The translations under genes and the position numbers were made by a program. The notes below the pieces were generated by a model. That model had not been told where the DNA came from. It did no database searches and saw nothing but the letters and a program-made list of their open reading frames with translations. Positions 1,196-4,762 of a stretch of DNA of 37,978 bases are shown piece by piece. Numbering within the stretch: position 1 is the first letter of the stretch; every line of letters starts with the position of its first letter. The stretch lies in the UHGV virus genome UHGV-0283905; one strand, given 5' to 3'. The stretch comes from a virus.

Positions 1196-1256
1196 CTTTA
1201 CCCTCGCTTATCCACATAACTTATTGATTACATTGATAACTAAAAAGATCGTCGAT

Positions 1257-1601
1257 TCAGAACTCTTCGATGTTCCAGCCACCACCTGCTTTCTTTGGCT
1301 TAACCGTTACCCCGATGATTCGGAACGGATACTGATCTGCGGCGACTTTGGTTTTCACTCTGGCGTCATCGGTCCAGAAACCTTTCACTTCGTGTAGTTC
1401 CATCTCGCCGGTGGCGAGCATCACAGCAAAATCGGGCGTATAGAACGTGTTGTCAGCTAACCGCAGCTTGATACCCTCGAATCGATACCAGGCGATTTCC
1501 CCTGCACGTTTACGCAGCTCAAGGTGCTGGCAATACGCAGATTCTGTTTTGTTCATCTGGCCTGTTTTGAGTCGACCAAGAGCCTGTATCTGTTTTCTCA
1601 T
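1257..1601 (-). CDS. putative small PD-(D/E)XK-type nuclease (DUF1064-like)
   Basis: 114 aa; motif YTPDF...ELHEVKG resembles a D...E.K nuclease core; start codon sits 3 nt after a TTACC-N5-GGTAA site. Confidence 0.4.
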   Translation of the reverse strand: MRKQIQALGRLKTGQMNKTESAYCQHLELRKRAGEIAWYRFEGIKLRLADNTFYTPDFAVMLATGEMELHEVKGFWTDDARVKTKVAADQYPFRIIGVTVKPKKAGGGWNIEEF

Positions 1602-1718
1602 GATTTACCTCTAAGGTAATTAAAAACCACATAAGACACGAAATCAATAGAGTTTAGAATATTTTATTACCCAACAGGTAATTATCAAGGCGTAAAAAAA
1701 TGCGCTATCGCGCTGGTA

Positions 1719-2519
1719 TTACTTGATAAATCCTGCCGCCTTTCCCCGCCTGTATTCCTCCATCAGCCACTGCGCCGGTGTTATTCCCCCAAGGGTGGCG
1801 GCGTTAGGCATGCACCCGAAACTTCGCCCTGGTGGATGGTAAACGTCTCTCCCTGTGTCCGGAGGCGTACTCATGGGTTCTGGCTTTGCCTGTATGCTGA
1901 TCACCGGATCGGGTATCTGCTGTCCGGAAGCCACCTTTTTCGCCCAATCATCGAGCAGCCTGCGCGCGTGTTTCTCAACCTCTATCTCGCTAAGCTGGCG
2001 CTGATACATTGCACGGCGGGTATCACATACGACCCAGTACATAACCGGATGCCGCCACGGGAATCTTTCGGGACCACCAGGATATAAACTTTTTTCCTTG
2101 CTGTACCGGTGAAACTCCGTCATCACATCGTCAATGGTGACGCCAAGAACCATCTTGCTGTCTTTGCACCACTTGATGAATTGCCCTGGCGACGGCCAGA
2201 ACGGAGATTCACTGGCGCGGGCGTGGCGCATACCAGCAGAAACCTGTTCACGGGTTCGGATCCCCCCTTCGGCAAACGCAGCAATCCACTGCTGTTTTGC
2301 AGCAACTTCCTGCTCTGGCGTCTTCAGGTTGGTTACCACTGCCGCCGGAAACAGTTGTTTCAGCTGTTTGAAAAGGGCATCAACAAGCCTCTCTGCTGAC
2401 ATGTTCACCACGTTGTCATTGTTGGTGTACTGATGCTCATAACCTGACATGCGAGAAAGGGCTTCTCCGTCACGGTTTTGTATCGCGGTAAAAACGTTGT
2501 TCACAAGAAATCCTCCCAT
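1719..2519 (-). CDS. replication protein P-like (DnaB helicase loader)
   Basis: Segment QQWIAAFAEGGIRTREQVSAGMRHARASESPFWPSPGQFIKWC closely matches my recollection of lambda P (QWVLAFRENGITTMEQVNAGMRVARRQNRPFLPSPGQFVAWC); lies directly downstream of the O-like gene. Confidence 0.8.
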   Translation of the reverse strand: MGGFLVNNVFTAIQNRDGEALSRMSGYEHQYTNNDNVVNMSAERLVDALFKQLKQLFPAAVVTNLKTPEQEVAAKQQWIAAFAEGGIRTREQVSAGMRHARASESPFWPSPGQFIKWCKDSKMVLGVTIDDVMTEFHRYSKEKSLYPGGPERFPWRHPVMYWVVCDTRRAMYQRQLSEIEVEKHARRLLDDWAKKVASGQQIPDPVISIQAKPEPMSTPPDTGRDVYHPPGRSFGCMPNAATLGGITPAQWLMEEYRRGKAAGFIK

Positions 2520-3292
2520 GCTTCAGGGCTGTTCCAGTGCGGAACGTTGTTATCAGGTAATGTTGATTGCTTCTGTCTGCTAATCTGCAGCCGCCTTGCC
2601 AGCTTCTGCTCCCACTGTGCCTGATGGTATGCCTTACCCTCAGCCATCCAGTAAATTCTGAACTCTGCAAGTTCCTGTGCCGTTGGCAGACTGTCCAGGT
2701 AGATCCCCTGCAAGGAGCTTTTCCGAAGAAAGTCATCTGATGGCTGCCATTGTTCATGCATGACAAATTTGCCTAATTGCCCTGGCCCACCAGGAGGAAC
2801 AAAGTTATTCATCACGGCGTTGTTTGCGCCGGGGTCATGAGGCACAGAATCCCCGTTTTTTGTCCTGCTCTCCCTCTCTTGGTTAAATGACTGGTTATAT
2901 GACTGGTTCTGGATCCCGTTTTTGGGATCATTCAACATCCCGTTTTTGGGTATATTCCCGTTTTCGGTAACATTACCGTTTTCGGGTTCATTGCCCCCCT
3001 CCCGGTTGCCTTTAATGTTCCCGTTTTTGGTTATATTAAGAGAGAAAACCCGCACTCTTTTCGTCGCTCCCTTTCTCTCTCCGGTATCTGAAATAAGCCC
3101 CATTTTCATGAGCGATATAAGCCCGGCCTGCACGGTTTTTTTATTCAGGCAAGTGTCTTTAACGAGGCGTTCTATGCTGGGGTAGCAGAGGTTATATTCA
3201 TCGGCTCTGTCAGCCATCGAGAGCAGTATGAGCTTTAATGACGAGCTACCTGGATCTGTCTCCCAGGCCCAATCTGTTGCATGTCTGCTCAT
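2501..3292 (-). CDS. replication initiator, lambda O-like, with origin iterons inside the coding sequence
   Basis: 263 aa; N-terminal winged-helix-like segment; central KNG/ENG peptide repeats encoded by DNA iterons; immediately upstream of the P-like gene. Confidence 0.65.
   Translation of the reverse strand: MSRHATDWAWETDPGSSSLKLILLSMADRADEYNLCYPSIERLVKDTCLNKKTVQAGLISLMKMGLISDTGERKGATKRVRVFSLNITKNGNIKGNREGGNEPENGNVTENGNIPKNGMLNDPKNGIQNQSYNQSFNQERESRTKNGDSVPHDPGANNAVMNNFVPPGGPGQLGKFVMHEQWQPSDDFLRKSSLQGIYLDSLPTAQELAEFRIYWMAEGKAYHQAQWEQKLARRLQISRQKQSTLPDNNVPHWNSPEAWEDFL
2912..3030. repeat. candidate origin iterons (about five copies of CCCGTTTT(T/C)GG) inside the O-like gene
   Basis: Copies begin near 2914, 2939, 2957, 2974 (variant) and 3020, followed by AT-rich TTATATTAAG; a separate tandem TGACTGGTT x2 lies at 2889..2910. 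Confidence 0.6.
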
Positions 3293-3307
3293 GATTAATC
3301 TCCGCTA

Positions 3308-3508
3308 TCAGCTTGAATATTGTGGGGAGGAATTAATCATGATCTGCTTAATCTCTGCCCTGATGCGACGGTTTGATTCCATGGTGCACTCAACACAGTG
3401 TCCGTTGTAAACCCAGCGTTCACTGTCATGTCCGTGCTTACATGGTTTTCCGGTGTAGTAGCGTTTAAGTCCGCGCTTTGCGGCATCAATACGTGTAATG
3501 ATTTCCAT
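3308..3508 (-). CDS. small zinc-ribbon protein (CxH.H ... CxxC)
   Basis: ORF table gives 3308..3571; internal ATG at 3508 (MEIITRID...) preferred because the longer N-terminus is hydrophobic and lacks an RBS; motif YYTGKPCKHGH...NGHCVEC. Confidence 0.4.
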   Translation of the reverse strand: MEIITRIDAAKRGLKRYYTGKPCKHGHDSERWVYNGHCVECTMESNRRIRAEIKQIMINSSPQYSS

Positions 3509-3658
3509 GGTAAGCCCTGTTATTAGTATTTGGATTACGGTTATTTTGTGCTGACACAAAAAAAAGATCAACCAGATTTGGTTTTTTATTACCTTTGAGG
3601 TACGGATAGATATGAAAAGACCGCCGGGTGGCGGTCTACAGAGGGTTGTAGCTGGATA

Positions 3659-3889
3659 TCATGAGTAGAAGAAGTATGCCAGTTCTGCTTTTGAGCGCAG
3701 CCATTGTCTTGTTTTACAGGCTTTAAAAAGCCCATTCATCAATACTTTACCTGGCATTTTGCGCTTACCTGTTAAGTGAGTCTGGATATAGTGACTCGTC
3801 GTTCCGGCTTCCTGTGCGAAGGCTTCACGCTCATCCGGAGTAAGTGCAAGCCAGTGCTTTTTGAAATCGAAATGTCCGTTATCGCTCAT
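3659..3889 (-). CDS. Cro-like small HTH regulator, first gene of the early-right operon
   Basis: 76 aa, divergent from the repressor gene across an intergenic region holding three dyad sites; HTH-like segment AFAQEAGTTSHYIQTHLTG. Confidence 0.45.
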   Translation of the reverse strand: MSDNGHFDFKKHWLALTPDEREAFAQEAGTTSHYIQTHLTGKRKMPGKVLMNGLFKACKTRQWLRSKAELAYFFYS

Positions 3890-3925
3890 AGCTATTGCCT
3901 GATATTTATTTCAGATAATAAATAT

Positions 3926-3988
3926 TCACCCATAAGGTAACAAAAATCAAGGATAGTTACCTATGGGGTGCATTTACCTGTTGGGTAA
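3926..3988. promoter_or_regulatory. OR-like operator cluster: three TTACC-N5-GGTAA-type dyad sites between the divergent Cro-like and repressor genes
   Basis: TCACCcataaGGTAA 3926..3940, TTACCtatggGGTGC 3957..3971 (one half degenerate), TTACCtgttgGGTAA 3974..3988. Confidence 0.6.
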
Positions 3989-4043
3989 TATTGCTTTAAA
4001 TTGAATCATCTACTGATTCATATATGAGGCGATTTTCCAGAAA

Positions 4044-4628
4044 ATGAAAAGTATCCAGGACGTCCGCAGGCAAAATCTCAACGACTTGATCGACCGTGAA
4101 TTCAATGGTGTTCAGACGCGGATGGCAGAAAAACTTGGAACTCAGGCAAATCTGGTAAACCGCTGGGCTCTTGGCAAGAAGGTTATCGGCGACCAGGTTG
4201 CACGAAAAATTGAAGCTGCCGCCAATAAACCCCGTAACTGGCTTGATATTGATCGTTCGCTTTCTCAGGAGGGTTTTCAGCCTGTCGGACCAAGCGACAT
4301 TGGTCAACTGGCGGCTCACAACCTGGAACGCTGGATGAGCGAAAGCCGCGACCTTTCAACACAGGGAAAACTTCACCGCGCATCCGGCGTAGCCCAGGTG
4401 ACAATCAGCCGCCTGTTAAACAATGAGGTCAGCGTTTCCATTTCCACCCTGGAGAATGTTGCATCCGCATTCGGGCGTCATGGCTATGAATTACTGATTC
4501 ACCCGCACGACCCTGCGACCATCAACTATGATCGCTCGCGCTACGCATTGTTACCCGAAACCGAGAAAGCAAAGATCGAAAGTTACATTGAATTTGTCAT
4601 CAACCAGAACGAAAAAAGCAAACAATAA
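4044..4628 (+). CDS. candidate immunity repressor, dual HTH (XRE-type), no peptidase S24 domain
   Basis: 194 aa; two HTH-like segments (about residues 20-45 and 115-140); no recognisable Ser/Lys autocleavage motifs; occupies the cI position opposite the Cro-like gene. Confidence 0.6.
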   Translation: MKSIQDVRRQNLNDLIDREFNGVQTRMAEKLGTQANLVNRWALGKKVIGDQVARKIEAAANKPRNWLDIDRSLSQEGFQPVGPSDIGQLAAHNLERWMSESRDLSTQGKLHRASGVAQVTISRLLNNEVSVSISTLENVASAFGRHGYELLIHPHDPATINYDRSRYALLPETEKAKIESYIEFVINQNEKSKQ

Positions 4629-4650
4629 AACCATAGTTTTCAGTAAGTAA

Positions 4651-4673
4651 GCCGCCTCATGGCGGCTTTTTTA
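4651..4673 (+). terminator. intrinsic terminator downstream of the repressor gene
   Basis: GCCGCC-tcat-GGCGGC hairpin followed by TTTTTTATT. Confidence 0.7.
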
Positions 4674-4685
4674 TTGCCAGATAGA

Positions 4686-4762
4686 TTACCTTACGGGTAA
4701 TTTTTTTAACTCATATCTATTGACACCAAACCAAATAAGCATAATTATTACCCCAACGGTAA
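4686..4762. promoter_or_regulatory. OL-like operators: two dyad sites upstream of the early-left operon
   Basis: TTACCttacgGGTAA 4686..4700 and TTACCccaacGGTAA 4748..4762, between the repressor terminator and the first early-left ORF. Confidence 0.55.

What the first reader, a model, noticed from the sequence alone, without database searches (positions are those of the whole stretch)
2889..3030. Origin-like iterons embedded in the O-like initiator gene
About five copies of CCCGTTTT(T/C)GG at 17-25 bp spacing, followed by an AT-rich stretch, lie inside the 2501..3292 coding sequence. They are translated as KNG/ENG peptide repeats. This mirrors ori-lambda inside gene O, and the P-like helicase loader follows directly.
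Basis: partly seen in the sequence, partly recalled or inferred. Interest (0 to 1): 0.4.

Follow-up and report, generated by a model that had tools for sequence, protein, structure and literature searches.

The report
Phage replication origin inside initiator gene
A phiV10-like E. coli phage carries its probable replication origin, a row of short initiator-binding DNA repeats, inside the gene for the initiator protein itself, as phage lambda does, but here the initiator is built from different protein domains.

Summary
Five exact CCGTTTTYGG cores lie at + 2916-3030, inside the 263-aa gene 2501..3292 (-). About 0.18 are expected by chance in the whole window. They and an adjacent 12-bp repeat are the only tandem arrays in 38 kb.

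The origin reading is well supported by comparison, but not by experiment.
- The same core (CC[A/G]AAAACGG) sits just after the homologous N-terminal winged-helix domain in about 20 distant relatives and most of 120 family representatives.
- It is often spaced 17, 23 or 25 bp apart, so it is read in different frames. Selection therefore acts on the DNA, not the peptide.
- The motif follows the N-domain, not the C-domain.
- It nearly equals the annotated gp15-binding iterons of phage phi80.
- Copy number varies by whole units (4-11) among close relatives.
- A lambda-P-family gene follows with a GTGA overlap.

It is HTH_36, a disordered linker and a DnaT C-terminal domain. The AT-rich stretch is weak. 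What is conserved next to the iterons is a 12/13-bp AACCAGTCA repeat.

Verdict: a variant of the known lambdoid origin-in-gene design, of moderate interest.

The parts
2501..3292 (-). Initiator gene, 263 aa: N-terminal winged helix, disordered linker, DnaT-CTD-like domain
   Evidence: ORF. Pfam HTH_36 at aa 18-67 (E 1.7e-10) and DnaT DNA-binding domain at aa 176-244 (E 1.1e-15). RefSeq calls the phiV10 orthologue 'replication initiation protein'.
3023..3292 (-). Coding region of the N-terminal winged-helix domain (aa 1-90), the presumed iteron-binding module
   Evidence: AlphaFold2 pLDDT 87-98 over aa 1-90, with H-H-H-H-beta-beta topology. Foldseek matches MarR/Fur-type winged helices and a plasmid Rep-DNA complex (5kbj) in PDB, and phage HTH and GpO-like proteins in BFVD. 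The whole-library search finds 567 cluster representatives at E<=1e-10.
2780..3022 (-). Linker-coding region (aa 91-171) that carries the iterons and the 12-mers; the peptide is predicted to be disordered
   Evidence: pLDDT is below 50 for aa 94-202. All repeats map here.
3020..3030 (-). Iteron 1 (gene sense AACCAAAAACGGGAAC), first in the direction of transcription
2975..2985 (-). Iteron 2 (AACCCGAAAACGGTAAT)
2957..2967 (-). Iteron 3 (TTACCGAAAACGGGAAT)
2939..2949 (-). Iteron 4 (ATACCCAAAAACGGGATG)
   Evidence: This 24-bp unit type is the one duplicated in relatives.
2915..2925 (-). Iteron 5 (GATCCCAAAAACGGGATC, perfect 6-bp inverted arms GATCCC/GGGATC)
2873..2908 (-). Three 12-bp direct repeats AACCAGTCATAT / AACCAGTCATTT / AACCAAGAGAGG immediately downstream (gene sense) of iteron 5; candidate DNA-unwinding element or second protein-binding element
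   Evidence: Tandem Repeats Finder array 2880-2908 and direct-repeat family D5. GC 0.39. AACC[AG]GTCA occurs only here in the window and is about 200-fold enriched at the same place in distant relatives, where copies are usually 13 nt apart and so in different frames. phiV10 has one extra unit.
2852..2863 (-). Outlying iteron-like copy (ACAAAAAACGGGG), one mismatch, 63 bp beyond iteron 5; probably not constrained
   Evidence: The core varies among close relatives (AAAAAACGG / AAAAAGCGG / AAAAACCGG).
2522..2779 (-). Coding region of the C-terminal domain (aa 172-257), homologous to the E. coli DnaT C-terminal ssDNA-binding, filament-forming domain
   Evidence: phmmer against PDB: 9zbt_D, 6aep, 4ou6, 2ru8 at E 7e-21 to 2e-19, aligned to DnaT residues 85-170 only.
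1719..2504 (-). Lambda-P-family helicase-loader gene; its GTG start overlaps the initiator stop (GTGA)
   Evidence: Pfam Phage_lambda_P E 1.5e-56. Overlap shown. Same arrangement is annotated in phiV10.

Best explanation
The array is the initiator-binding part of the phage's replication origin, laid out as in lambda and phi80. The 263-aa initiator has an N-terminal winged-helix domain, and this domain binds the five roughly 20-bp sites (consensus RAATnnnCC[C/A][A/G]AAAACGG[G/T]A). These sites lie in the DNA that encodes the protein's own disordered linker. The multi-protein complex, helped by the A-tract in each site, destabilises the neighbouring 12-bp repeat block at 2873-2908. The C-terminal DnaT-like domain then holds the single strands and/or, together with the C-terminal tail, brings in the P-like protein carrying host DnaB helicase. 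Shown here: the repeats are real, they are selected as DNA, they travel with the N-terminal domain, they match known phi80 iterons, and the domain make-up and gene order are as stated. Inferred: binding, unwinding, the site of unwinding and the recruitment of P-DnaB.
For: (1) The cluster is not chance: 5 exact cores in 115 bp against 0.18 expected per 38 kb. These are the only tandem arrays in the window.
(2) Selection acts on DNA. In 26 distant relatives (N-domain 46-87% identical; Vibrio, Pseudoalteromonas, Proteus, Providencia, Marinobacterium, Desulfovibrio, Burkholderia phage and others), the relaxed core occurs at 9.7 per kb in nt 241-600 of the gene and 0.10 per kb elsewhere. 18 of 26 have 3 or more copies and 14 of 26 have copies in more than one frame. 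19 of 50 short spacings are not multiples of 3 (17, 23, 25 bp). Among 120 representatives of 50%-identity clusters, 90 carry 2 or more peptide signatures of the motif in aa 81-200 (372 hits against 5 elsewhere), and 59 show signatures of 2 or more frames.
(3) The motif is linked to the N-domain. GF-2 (whose C-terminal part resembles lambda O by eye, with a P gene), AP22 (followed by a DnaB-like helicase), Vibrio H20 and Bcep176 share the N-domain and the repeats but not the C-domain. SPN1S, Tyrion, TL-2011b and Rac YdaU share the DnaT-like C-domain but have another N-domain and no CCNAAAANGG at all.
(4) The phi80 record annotates four gp15-binding sites inside gene 15, such as TTCCCGAAAACGGGAAAA, with the same core read in another frame. 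Lambda iterons ATCCCTCAAAACGAGGGA share the TCCC / A-tract / GGGA plan and also fall in frames 0, 2, 2, 1.
(5) All 78 close relatives in IMG/VR keep the array. Copy number is 4-9 (mode 6) there, and up to 11 are seen in database proteins. Changes are whole 18- or 24-bp units.
(6) The encoded segment is predicted to be disordered, so it can tolerate DNA-level constraint.
(7) A P-family gene follows with a GTGA overlap.
(8) Literature: in lambdoid phages the origin lies in the middle of O and consists of iterons plus an AT-rich tract, with 4 iterons in lambda and 6 in Stx phages (PMC7466680).
Against: There is no experimental evidence for binding or origin activity in this phage or any relative with this N-domain; nothing turned up in the held literature. 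The flanking region is only mildly A+T-rich (GC 0.39; 94-98th percentile of low duplex stability), unlike lambda. In this window all five copies are in one frame, so the window alone cannot separate DNA-level from peptide-level selection; that argument rests on relatives. Sequence homology of the N-domain to lambda O or phi80 gp15 was not detected (hhalign probability 7.7%), so the iteron similarity to phi80 could be convergent.
Confidence: 0.8

Rival explanations
1. The sites are true initiator-binding sites, but their main role is regulatory: autoregulation, copy control by handcuffing, or replication-type incompatibility. DNA opening would then happen somewhere else in the genome.
For: Iterons in plasmids serve both initiation and control. 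In Stx phages the two distal iterons are bound weakly yet are still needed (PMC7466680). No strong A+T-rich block adjoins the array here.
Against: No other repeat array exists in the 38-kb window. A second conserved DNA element (12/13-mers), followed in several relatives by an A-rich tract, sits directly beside the last iteron, as expected for an unwinding region. The layout matches lambda and phi80, where the same site is the origin.
Confidence: 0.1
2. The repeats are only a by-product of a repetitive, slippage-prone low-complexity linker peptide (xPKNGx), selected if at all at the protein level, with no DNA function.
For: In this window all copies are in frame and encode (K/E)NG. Copy number changes by in-frame units. 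The segment is predicted to be disordered.
Against: In relatives the same DNA core is spaced 17, 22, 23 or 25 bp apart and is translated in two or three frames as PKNG, TQKR or PKTG. The DNA motif is conserved where the peptide is not. The phi80 binding sites have the same core in another frame. The motif is absent from proteins that share only the C-domain.
Confidence: 0.04
3. The array serves another DNA transaction, such as a packaging (pac) site, a partition site or a recombination hot spot.
For: Some public phage records begin inside or next to this region (O157 typing phages 9 and 10 at window 2763 and 2887; Vibrio Va_90-11-287_p41).
Against: Those record starts are better explained by assemblies breaking at repeats. 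Many database proteins of the family are 'partial' and come from contigs of about 1 kb, which fits the same explanation. The motif is tied to a replication-initiator DNA-binding domain in phages with unrelated virion modules (Uetakevirus, Obolenskvirus, Gofduovirus, Vibrio H20-like).
Confidence: 0.03

Closest known systems
Phage phi80 origin inside gene 15, followed by gene 14 (P-like)
   Same: Direct repeats inside the linker-coding middle of the initiator gene. The core is almost identical (phi80 TTCCCGAAAACGGGA; here ACCCGAAAACGGTA and TCCCAAAAACGGGA). An AGAAC(C)AGT-like sequence lies downstream of the last iteron. A P-family gene follows.
   Different: phi80 gp15 has a Pfam Phage_rep_O N-domain and what looks by eye like a lambda-O-type C-terminal part. 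Here the N-domain is HTH_36 and the C-domain is DnaT-CTD. The core is read in a different frame (PKTG there, PKNG here). phi80 has 4 sites about 21 bp apart; here there are 5 at 18, 24 and 45 bp.
Phage lambda ori in gene O, with gene P
   Same: Origin in the middle of the initiator gene. Iterons have the TCCC / A-tract / GGGA inverted-arm plan. The unwinding region lies on the promoter-distal side. The P gene lies immediately downstream and overlaps (PMC7466680).
   Different: Lambda iterons are 18-19 bp with a longer spacer (TCCCTCAAAACGAGGGA). Lambda has a strong 40-bp A+T-rich block, whereas here there is only a mildly A+T-rich 12-bp repeat block. The initiator domains belong to different Pfam families, and profile comparison does not show homology.
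Stx phage (933W, P27) origins with six iterons
   Same: Iteron number differs between related phages through gain or loss of whole units (PMC7466680; here 4-11 copies).
   Different: The Stx O proteins are close lambda O homologues; the protein here is not.
E. coli DnaT (primosomal protein I, replication restart)
   Same: The C-terminal domain (aa 172-257) is clearly homologous to DnaT residues 85-170 (E about 1e-20). That domain forms helical filaments on ssDNA (PMC13377028).
   Different: The alignment to DnaT covers only DnaT residues 85-170, so the DnaT N-terminal domain is not matched; PriA/PriB dependence is not implied. Instead, a sequence-specific winged helix is fused to the DnaT-like domain. 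The database names 'primosomal protein I' and 'DnaT' for this phage protein are misleading.
Iteron plasmids (RepA, RepE, pi; Rep_3) and staphylococcal RepA
   Same: A winged-helix initiator binds tandem iterons next to an unwinding element. Foldseek finds the staphylococcal Rep-DNA complex 5kbj among many winged helices.
   Different: There is no Rep_3 match and only one winged-helix domain. The iterons lie inside the gene rather than beside it. The helicase loader is phage-encoded.

Membership tests
Lambda-type origin embedded in the initiator gene (lambda, phi80, Stx phages) | Three or more direct repeats (iterons) inside the initiator coding sequence, in the part between the DNA-binding and C-terminal domains | tested here: met
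   Five exact cores at 2916-3030, between the HTH_36 domain (aa 18-67) and the DnaT-like domain (aa 176-244).
Lambda-type origin embedded in the initiator gene (lambda, phi80, Stx phages) | Iterons with inverted arms around an A-tract (TCCC...GGGA) | tested here: met
   Iteron 5 is GATCCCAAAAACGGGATC and iteron 4 is ACCCAAAAACGGGAT; the other three have partial arms. Family consensus RAATnnnCCCAAAAACGGnA comes from 86 copies. Compared with the lambda and phi80 sites read from their records.
Lambda-type origin embedded in the initiator gene (lambda, phi80, Stx phages) | A+T-rich unwinding region next to the iterons, on the promoter-distal side | tested here: inconclusive
   2873-2908 has GC 0.39 against 0.492 for the window and reaches only the 94-98th percentile of low stability. 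It does carry a conserved 12/13-bp repeat, followed by an A-rich tract in several relatives but not here.
Lambda-type origin embedded in the initiator gene (lambda, phi80, Stx phages) | Helicase-loader gene of the lambda P family immediately downstream | tested here: met
   Pfam Phage_lambda_P, E 1.5e-56, 191 bits against a cut-off of 26; GTGA overlap.
Lambda-type origin embedded in the initiator gene (lambda, phi80, Stx phages) | Fragment supports initiator- and P-dependent replication; initiator footprints on the iterons | not testable with these tools
Lambda O protein family (Pfam Phage_rep_O, PF04492) | N-terminal domain matches Phage_rep_O | tested here: not met
   Lambda O and phi80 gp15 match Phage_rep_O (E 6e-36 and 6e-25). 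The window protein and its relatives match HTH_36 only. hhalign of the two N-domain alignments gives probability 7.7%. Foldseek finds GpO-annotated phage proteins only at E 6e-9 to 1e-5, among generic winged helices.
Pfam HTH_36 (PF13730) phage and plasmid replication-type winged helix | Score above the gathering threshold | tested here: met
   41 bits against a cut-off of 25. The model is a confident winged helix.
E. coli DnaT (replication-restart primosome protein) | Full DnaT architecture: N-terminal oligomerisation domain, PriB-docking linker and C-terminal ssDNA-binding domain | tested here: not met
   Only DnaT residues 85-170 align. The N-terminal 90 aa are a winged helix instead.
E. 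coli DnaT (replication-restart primosome protein) | C-terminal three-helix ssDNA-binding domain (Pfam DnaT, PF17948) | tested here: met
   Pfam 57.6 bits against a cut-off of 25. PDB hits at E about 1e-20. ssDNA binding itself was not tested.
Iteron-plasmid Rep proteins (Rep_3 / RepA-RepE-pi) | Rep_3-type double winged-helix initiator | tested here: not met
   No Rep_3 hit in Pfam. Only one confident N-terminal domain in the model.

The most novel reading that the evidence does not exclude
This initiator may be a natural 'origin-tethered DnaT'. A row of iteron-bound winged helices would deliver several DnaT-type C-terminal domains onto the adjacent 12/13-mer element, where they would polymerise on one strand as DnaT does on lagging-strand ssDNA. 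That would open the origin by a DnaA-like route without PriA or PriB and hand it to P-DnaB. On this reading the conserved AACCAGTCA 12/13-mers are a sequence-specific element of that step. The near-identity of the iteron core with phi80's, despite different Pfam families for the binding domain, would reflect an ancient common origin-initiator pair.
Probability: 0.25. Interest if true: 0.6.

Novelty: new variant of a known kind. Interest (0 to 1): 0.38.

Why it matters
It gives a concrete, testable origin for the phiV10 (Uetakevirus) group, whose public records annotate none at this locus and name the initiator 'primosomal protein I / DnaT'. phiV10 is already used as an engineered reporter phage for E. 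coli O157 detection.

It also defines a large initiator family. 567 clusters at 50% identity match at E<=1e-10, across Gammaproteobacteria, Burkholderia phage and Desulfovibrio. The N-terminal domain, a conserved iteron core and often a 12/13-mer travel together, while the C-terminal helicase-recruiting part is swapped. This gives a simple rule for predicting origins and replication-type incompatibility in prophages.

Fusion of an origin-binding domain to the filament-forming DnaT C-terminal domain offers a natural system for testing the DnaT/DnaA parallel proposed in 2026 (PMC13377028).

In practice, the array appears to break short-read assemblies and produces truncated gene calls.

Tried and rejected
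- Homology of the N-domain to lambda O or phi80 gp15: hhalign of small alignments gave probability 7.7%, over the recognition helix only. Homology is not shown and not excluded.
- PDB fold search: only generic winged helices (MarR, Fur, TFE, plasmid Rep), all at E>=1e-3. The BFVD search was dominated by uncharacterised phage HTH proteins.
- DnaA boxes: none within about 1.3 kb of the array. The only perfect box is at 1208-1216, and the window total is not above chance.
- Strong A+T-rich block: not found.
- Promoter and terminator consensus scans of 1600-4700 were at chance level. One terminator-like hit at 2923-2942 is just the iteron 4/5 inverted repeat.
- A degenerate iteron in the 45-bp gap (2996-3009, GCAACCGGGAGGGG) was considered and dropped: it has no A-tract and GC 0.79.
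- The outlying copy at 2852-2863 was considered as a sixth iteron, but its core varies among close relatives.
- The first genome-contig scan with the six-sequence alignment failed for lack of a conserved stretch. A three-sequence alignment worked.
- Literature searches on phiV10, Uetakevirus, HTH_36 and DnaT with iterons found no description of this origin.
- GC skew was not used. In a 38-kb phage it mostly follows transcription direction.

Full report
**Context.** The window is a phiV10-like (genus Uetakevirus) E. coli phage or prophage. Positions 762-25000 align to phage phiV10 at 96.7% identity, and the gene of interest is 94-99% identical to phiV10, phiv142-3, PAS61 and EC.W1-9. The early region is transcribed on the minus strand. 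It comprises a repressor-like gene at 4044-4628 (+), a small cro-position gene at 3659-3889 (-), an 87-aa ORF at 3308-3571 (-), the initiator at 2501-3292 (-), a P-like gene at 1719-2504 (-) and a DUF1064 gene at 1257-1601 (-).

**1. The observation.**
- Exact CCGTTTTYGG occurs five times, at + 2916, 2940, 2958, 2976 and 3021, and nowhere else in 38 kb on either strand.
- A first-order Markov model of the window expects 0.18 exact matches. None of 300 randomisations gave two matches within 150 bp.
- Spacing is 24, 18, 18 and 45 bp. A one-mismatch copy lies at 2852-2863.
- Tandem Repeats Finder reports only two arrays in the whole window. These are this one (2938-2992, period 18) and a 12-bp array beside it (2880-2908).
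- All copies lie in ORF 2501..3292 (-), in one frame, and give TKNG, PENG, TENG, PKNG, PKNG.
- The 'AT-rich stretch' is weak. GC is 0.39 over 2873-2908 against 0.492 overall. The least stable 20-mers flank the array on both sides (3030-3049 at the 99.6th percentile, 2883-2902 at the 98.4th). Nothing resembles lambda's 40-bp A+T block.

**2. The protein.**
- Pfam gives HTH_36 at aa 18-67 and the DnaT DNA-binding domain at aa 176-244, and no match to Phage_rep_O.
- Against PDB sequences, aa 172-257 align to E. coli DnaT residues 85-170 at E about 1e-20 (9zbt, 6aep, 4ou6, 2ru8).
- An AlphaFold2 model built on a 98-sequence alignment has a confident N-terminal winged helix (aa 1-90, pLDDT 87-98). 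The segment aa 94-202 has pLDDT below 50, and the C-terminal helical domain is modelled with moderate confidence.
- The iterons and the 12-mers therefore lie in DNA that encodes a disordered linker.
- The next gene is a clear lambda-P family member (E 1.5e-56). Its GTG start overlaps the initiator stop as GTGA.

**3. Close relatives.**
- In an alignment with seven phage records, the only length differences are one extra 24-bp unit (CCCAAAAACGGGATGTTGAATGAT) in six of them and one extra 12-bp unit (AACCAGTCATAT) in phiV10.
- Among 78 IMG/VR relatives with 99-100% identical N-domains, every one keeps the array. The modal form has 6 cores (spacing 45, 18, 18, 24, 24) and the range is 4-9. The window's 5-core form is a minority.
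- Database proteins reach 311 aa with 11 units.

**4. Distant relatives: the key test.** Proteins sharing only the N-terminal domain (35-87% identity) were collected from phage records and from one-genome-per-species contigs. Nearly all have 3-9 repeats directly after the N-domain coding part, mostly with the same core CC(C/A)(A/G)AAAACGG.
- In 26 non-redundant genes the relaxed core occurs at 9.7 per kb in nt 241-600 and at 0.10 per kb elsewhere in the loci.
- 18 of 26 have 3 or more copies, and 14 of 26 have copies in more than one reading frame.
- 19 of 50 short spacings are not multiples of three. Examples are 17, 17, 23, 24 in a Vibrio salinus prophage; 17, 17, 104, 17, 17, 17, 40, 23 in a Desulfovibrio; and a 22-bp period in the Bcep176 repeat family.
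- The same DNA word is thus translated as PKNG, TQKR or PKTG, depending on the copy.
- Across 120 representatives of 50%-identity clusters found by a full-library search, 90 carry 2 or more of these peptide signatures in aa 81-200 (372 hits against 5 elsewhere). 59 show signatures of at least two frames.
- Selection therefore acts on the DNA word, not on the peptide.
- A position matrix from 86 copies extends the site to about 20 bp, RAATnnnCCCAAAAACGGnA. Essentially the whole 18-24-bp unit is one site.

**5. Which domain the motif follows.**
- GF-2 (C-terminal part resembling lambda O by eye, followed by a P gene), AP22 (followed by a DnaB-like helicase gene), Vibrio H20 and Bcep176 share the N-domain and have the repeats, but their C-terminal parts do not align with the window's.
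- SPN1S, Tyrion, TL-2011b and Rac YdaU share the DnaT-like C-domain but have other N-terminal domains, and they contain no CCNAAAANGG on either strand.
- The repeats are thus the cognate partner of the N-terminal winged helix.

**6. Comparison with characterised origins, read from the records and not from memory.**
- The phi80 record annotates four gp15-binding sites inside gene 15: AACCGGAAACGGGAAG, TTCCCGAAAACGGGAAAA, TTCCCGAAATCAGGAAT and TTCCCGAAAACGGTAG.
- The lambda record annotates four iterons inside O, such as ATCCCTCAAAACGAGGGA, in frames 0, 2, 2, 1.
- The window's sites (ACCCGAAAACGGTA, TCCCAAAAACGGGAT) have practically the phi80 core, read in another frame. They share the TCCC / A-tract / GGGA plan with lambda.
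- Yet lambda O and phi80 gp15 are Phage_rep_O proteins. A profile comparison with the present N-domain shows no significant similarity (probability 7.7%).
- Foldseek finds GpO-annotated proteins only among many generic winged helices.
- Whether the shared iteron type reflects deep common ancestry or convergence remains open.

**7. A second conserved element.**
- Immediately downstream (gene sense) of the last iteron, the window has AACCAGTCATAT AACCAGTCATTT AACCAAGAGAGG (2873-2908).
- AACC[AG]GTCA occurs only there in the window. In distant relatives it is about 200-fold enriched at the same place (1.88 per kb against 0.009 per kb).
- In five of the six relatives with two strict copies, the copies are 13 nt apart, so they are read as NQS and then EPV.
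- In several relatives an A-rich tract follows, for example TTAAAAAATAAATCAAAAAA. In the window that position is purine-rich but not A+T-rich.
- By position this block corresponds to the unwinding region of lambda and phi80. Whether it is melted, bound as duplex or bound as a single strand is unknown.

**8. Mechanism.**
- Shown: a non-random, DNA-selected array of about 20-bp sites coupled to a winged-helix domain; a disordered linker; a DnaT-CTD-type domain; and a downstream P-family gene.
- Inferred from lambda biology (PMC7466680) and from DnaT structures (PMC13377028): several initiator molecules occupy the iterons and bend the DNA through the A-tracts. This stresses the adjacent 12-mer block. 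The C-terminal DnaT-like domains, which in E. coli form helical filaments on ssDNA, stabilise the opened strand and/or dock the P-DnaB complex. Early transcription passes through the site, as in lambda.
- I put 0.8 on 'initiator-binding iterons of the origin'. About 0.1 goes to 'binding sites with mainly regulatory function', and a few per cent go to peptide-only or other DNA roles.

**9. Novelty and score.**
- An origin inside the initiator gene with a P-type loader downstream is textbook lambdoid biology, so the finding is not surprising in kind.
- It is not a member of the lambda O family by the sequence test. It is a variant built from HTH_36 plus a DnaT C-terminal domain. I found no description of its origin in the held literature or in the phage records.
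- The family-wide rule (N-domain, conserved core and 12/13-mer together, with swappable C-termini), the phi80-like core and the tethered DnaT domain add moderate interest.
- Interest is 0.38.

Noticed in passing
window 2501-2545 (C-terminal tail of the initiator, ...NNVPHWNSPEAWEDFL): The tail ...VPHWNSPEAWEDFL is shared with the Enterobacter phage Tyrion initiator, which has a different N-domain and is also followed by a 786-nt gene annotated 'replication protein'. The tail is absent from the SPN1S initiator, which has the same DnaT-like domain but is followed directly by the DUF1064 gene, with no such gene between. Lambda O, phi80 gp15, GF-2 and TL-2011b end in an NTDW(I/A)(Y/E)GV-like tail. 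These tails may be docking peptides for the P-like protein.
   Followed up: no
window 2501-3292; database proteins P0001-P0120: Public sources name this phage initiator 'primosomal protein I', 'DnaT' or 'DnaT-like ssDNA-binding domain-containing protein', although only the C-terminal domain of DnaT (residues 85-170) is matched. The names hide its role as origin-binding initiator.
   Followed up: partly
window 2763 and 2887; records KP869107, KP869108, MK672800, MK672801: Several linear phage records start inside or next to the repeat region of this gene or its Vibrio homologue. Many database proteins of the family are 'partial' and come from contigs of about 1 kb. The array probably breaks short-read assemblies.
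   Followed up: partly
L002 (PP488543 Escherichia phage BP9, 131937-138295) and L007 (PP350014 phage PH444): A 138-kb Vequintavirus record and a 115-kb 'UNVERIFIED_ORG' record each carry a phiV10-like early region (99.5% and 95.8% identical to the window gene), in BP9 at the record's end. These look like chimeric assemblies or prophage contamination.
   Followed up: no
L013 1030-1845 (Salmonella phage SPN1S initiator gene): This Uetakevirus initiator has the same DnaT-like C-domain but a different N-terminal domain, and its gene is followed directly by the DUF1064 gene with no P-like gene between. It carries its own short repeats GTCCGCAT (gene nt 55, 66, 334, 345) with the complementary AAGCGGAC at nt 77, 356 and 367. 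This may be a different iteron set.
   Followed up: no
window 1208-1216 (+): This is the only perfect DnaA box (TTATCCACA) in the window. It is intergenic, between ORFs 542-1195 and 1257-1601, about 1.7 kb from the iterons. The count of near-matches in the window is not above chance.
   Followed up: no
window 3308-3571 (-): Between the cro-position gene and the initiator, the window has an 87-aa ORF with no Pfam match. phiV10, phiv142-3 and PAS61 annotate a 201-nt gene at this position, and the BP9 record annotates nothing there. This is a small variable slot just upstream of the initiator.
   Followed up: no
L110, L111 (Acinetobacter), L114 (Sphingobium), L115 (Zoogloeaceae), L117 (Methylotenera), nt about 260-470 of the homologous genes: The most divergent N-domains (47-54% identity) keep a repeat array at the same place but with other words: AACAGTACCAAC, AACCAGTCGGAAAAATCCG, CCACCAGTGCCAAAAGT, CTACCAGT. 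This could serve as raw material for a code linking the recognition helix to the iteron sequence.
   Followed up: partly
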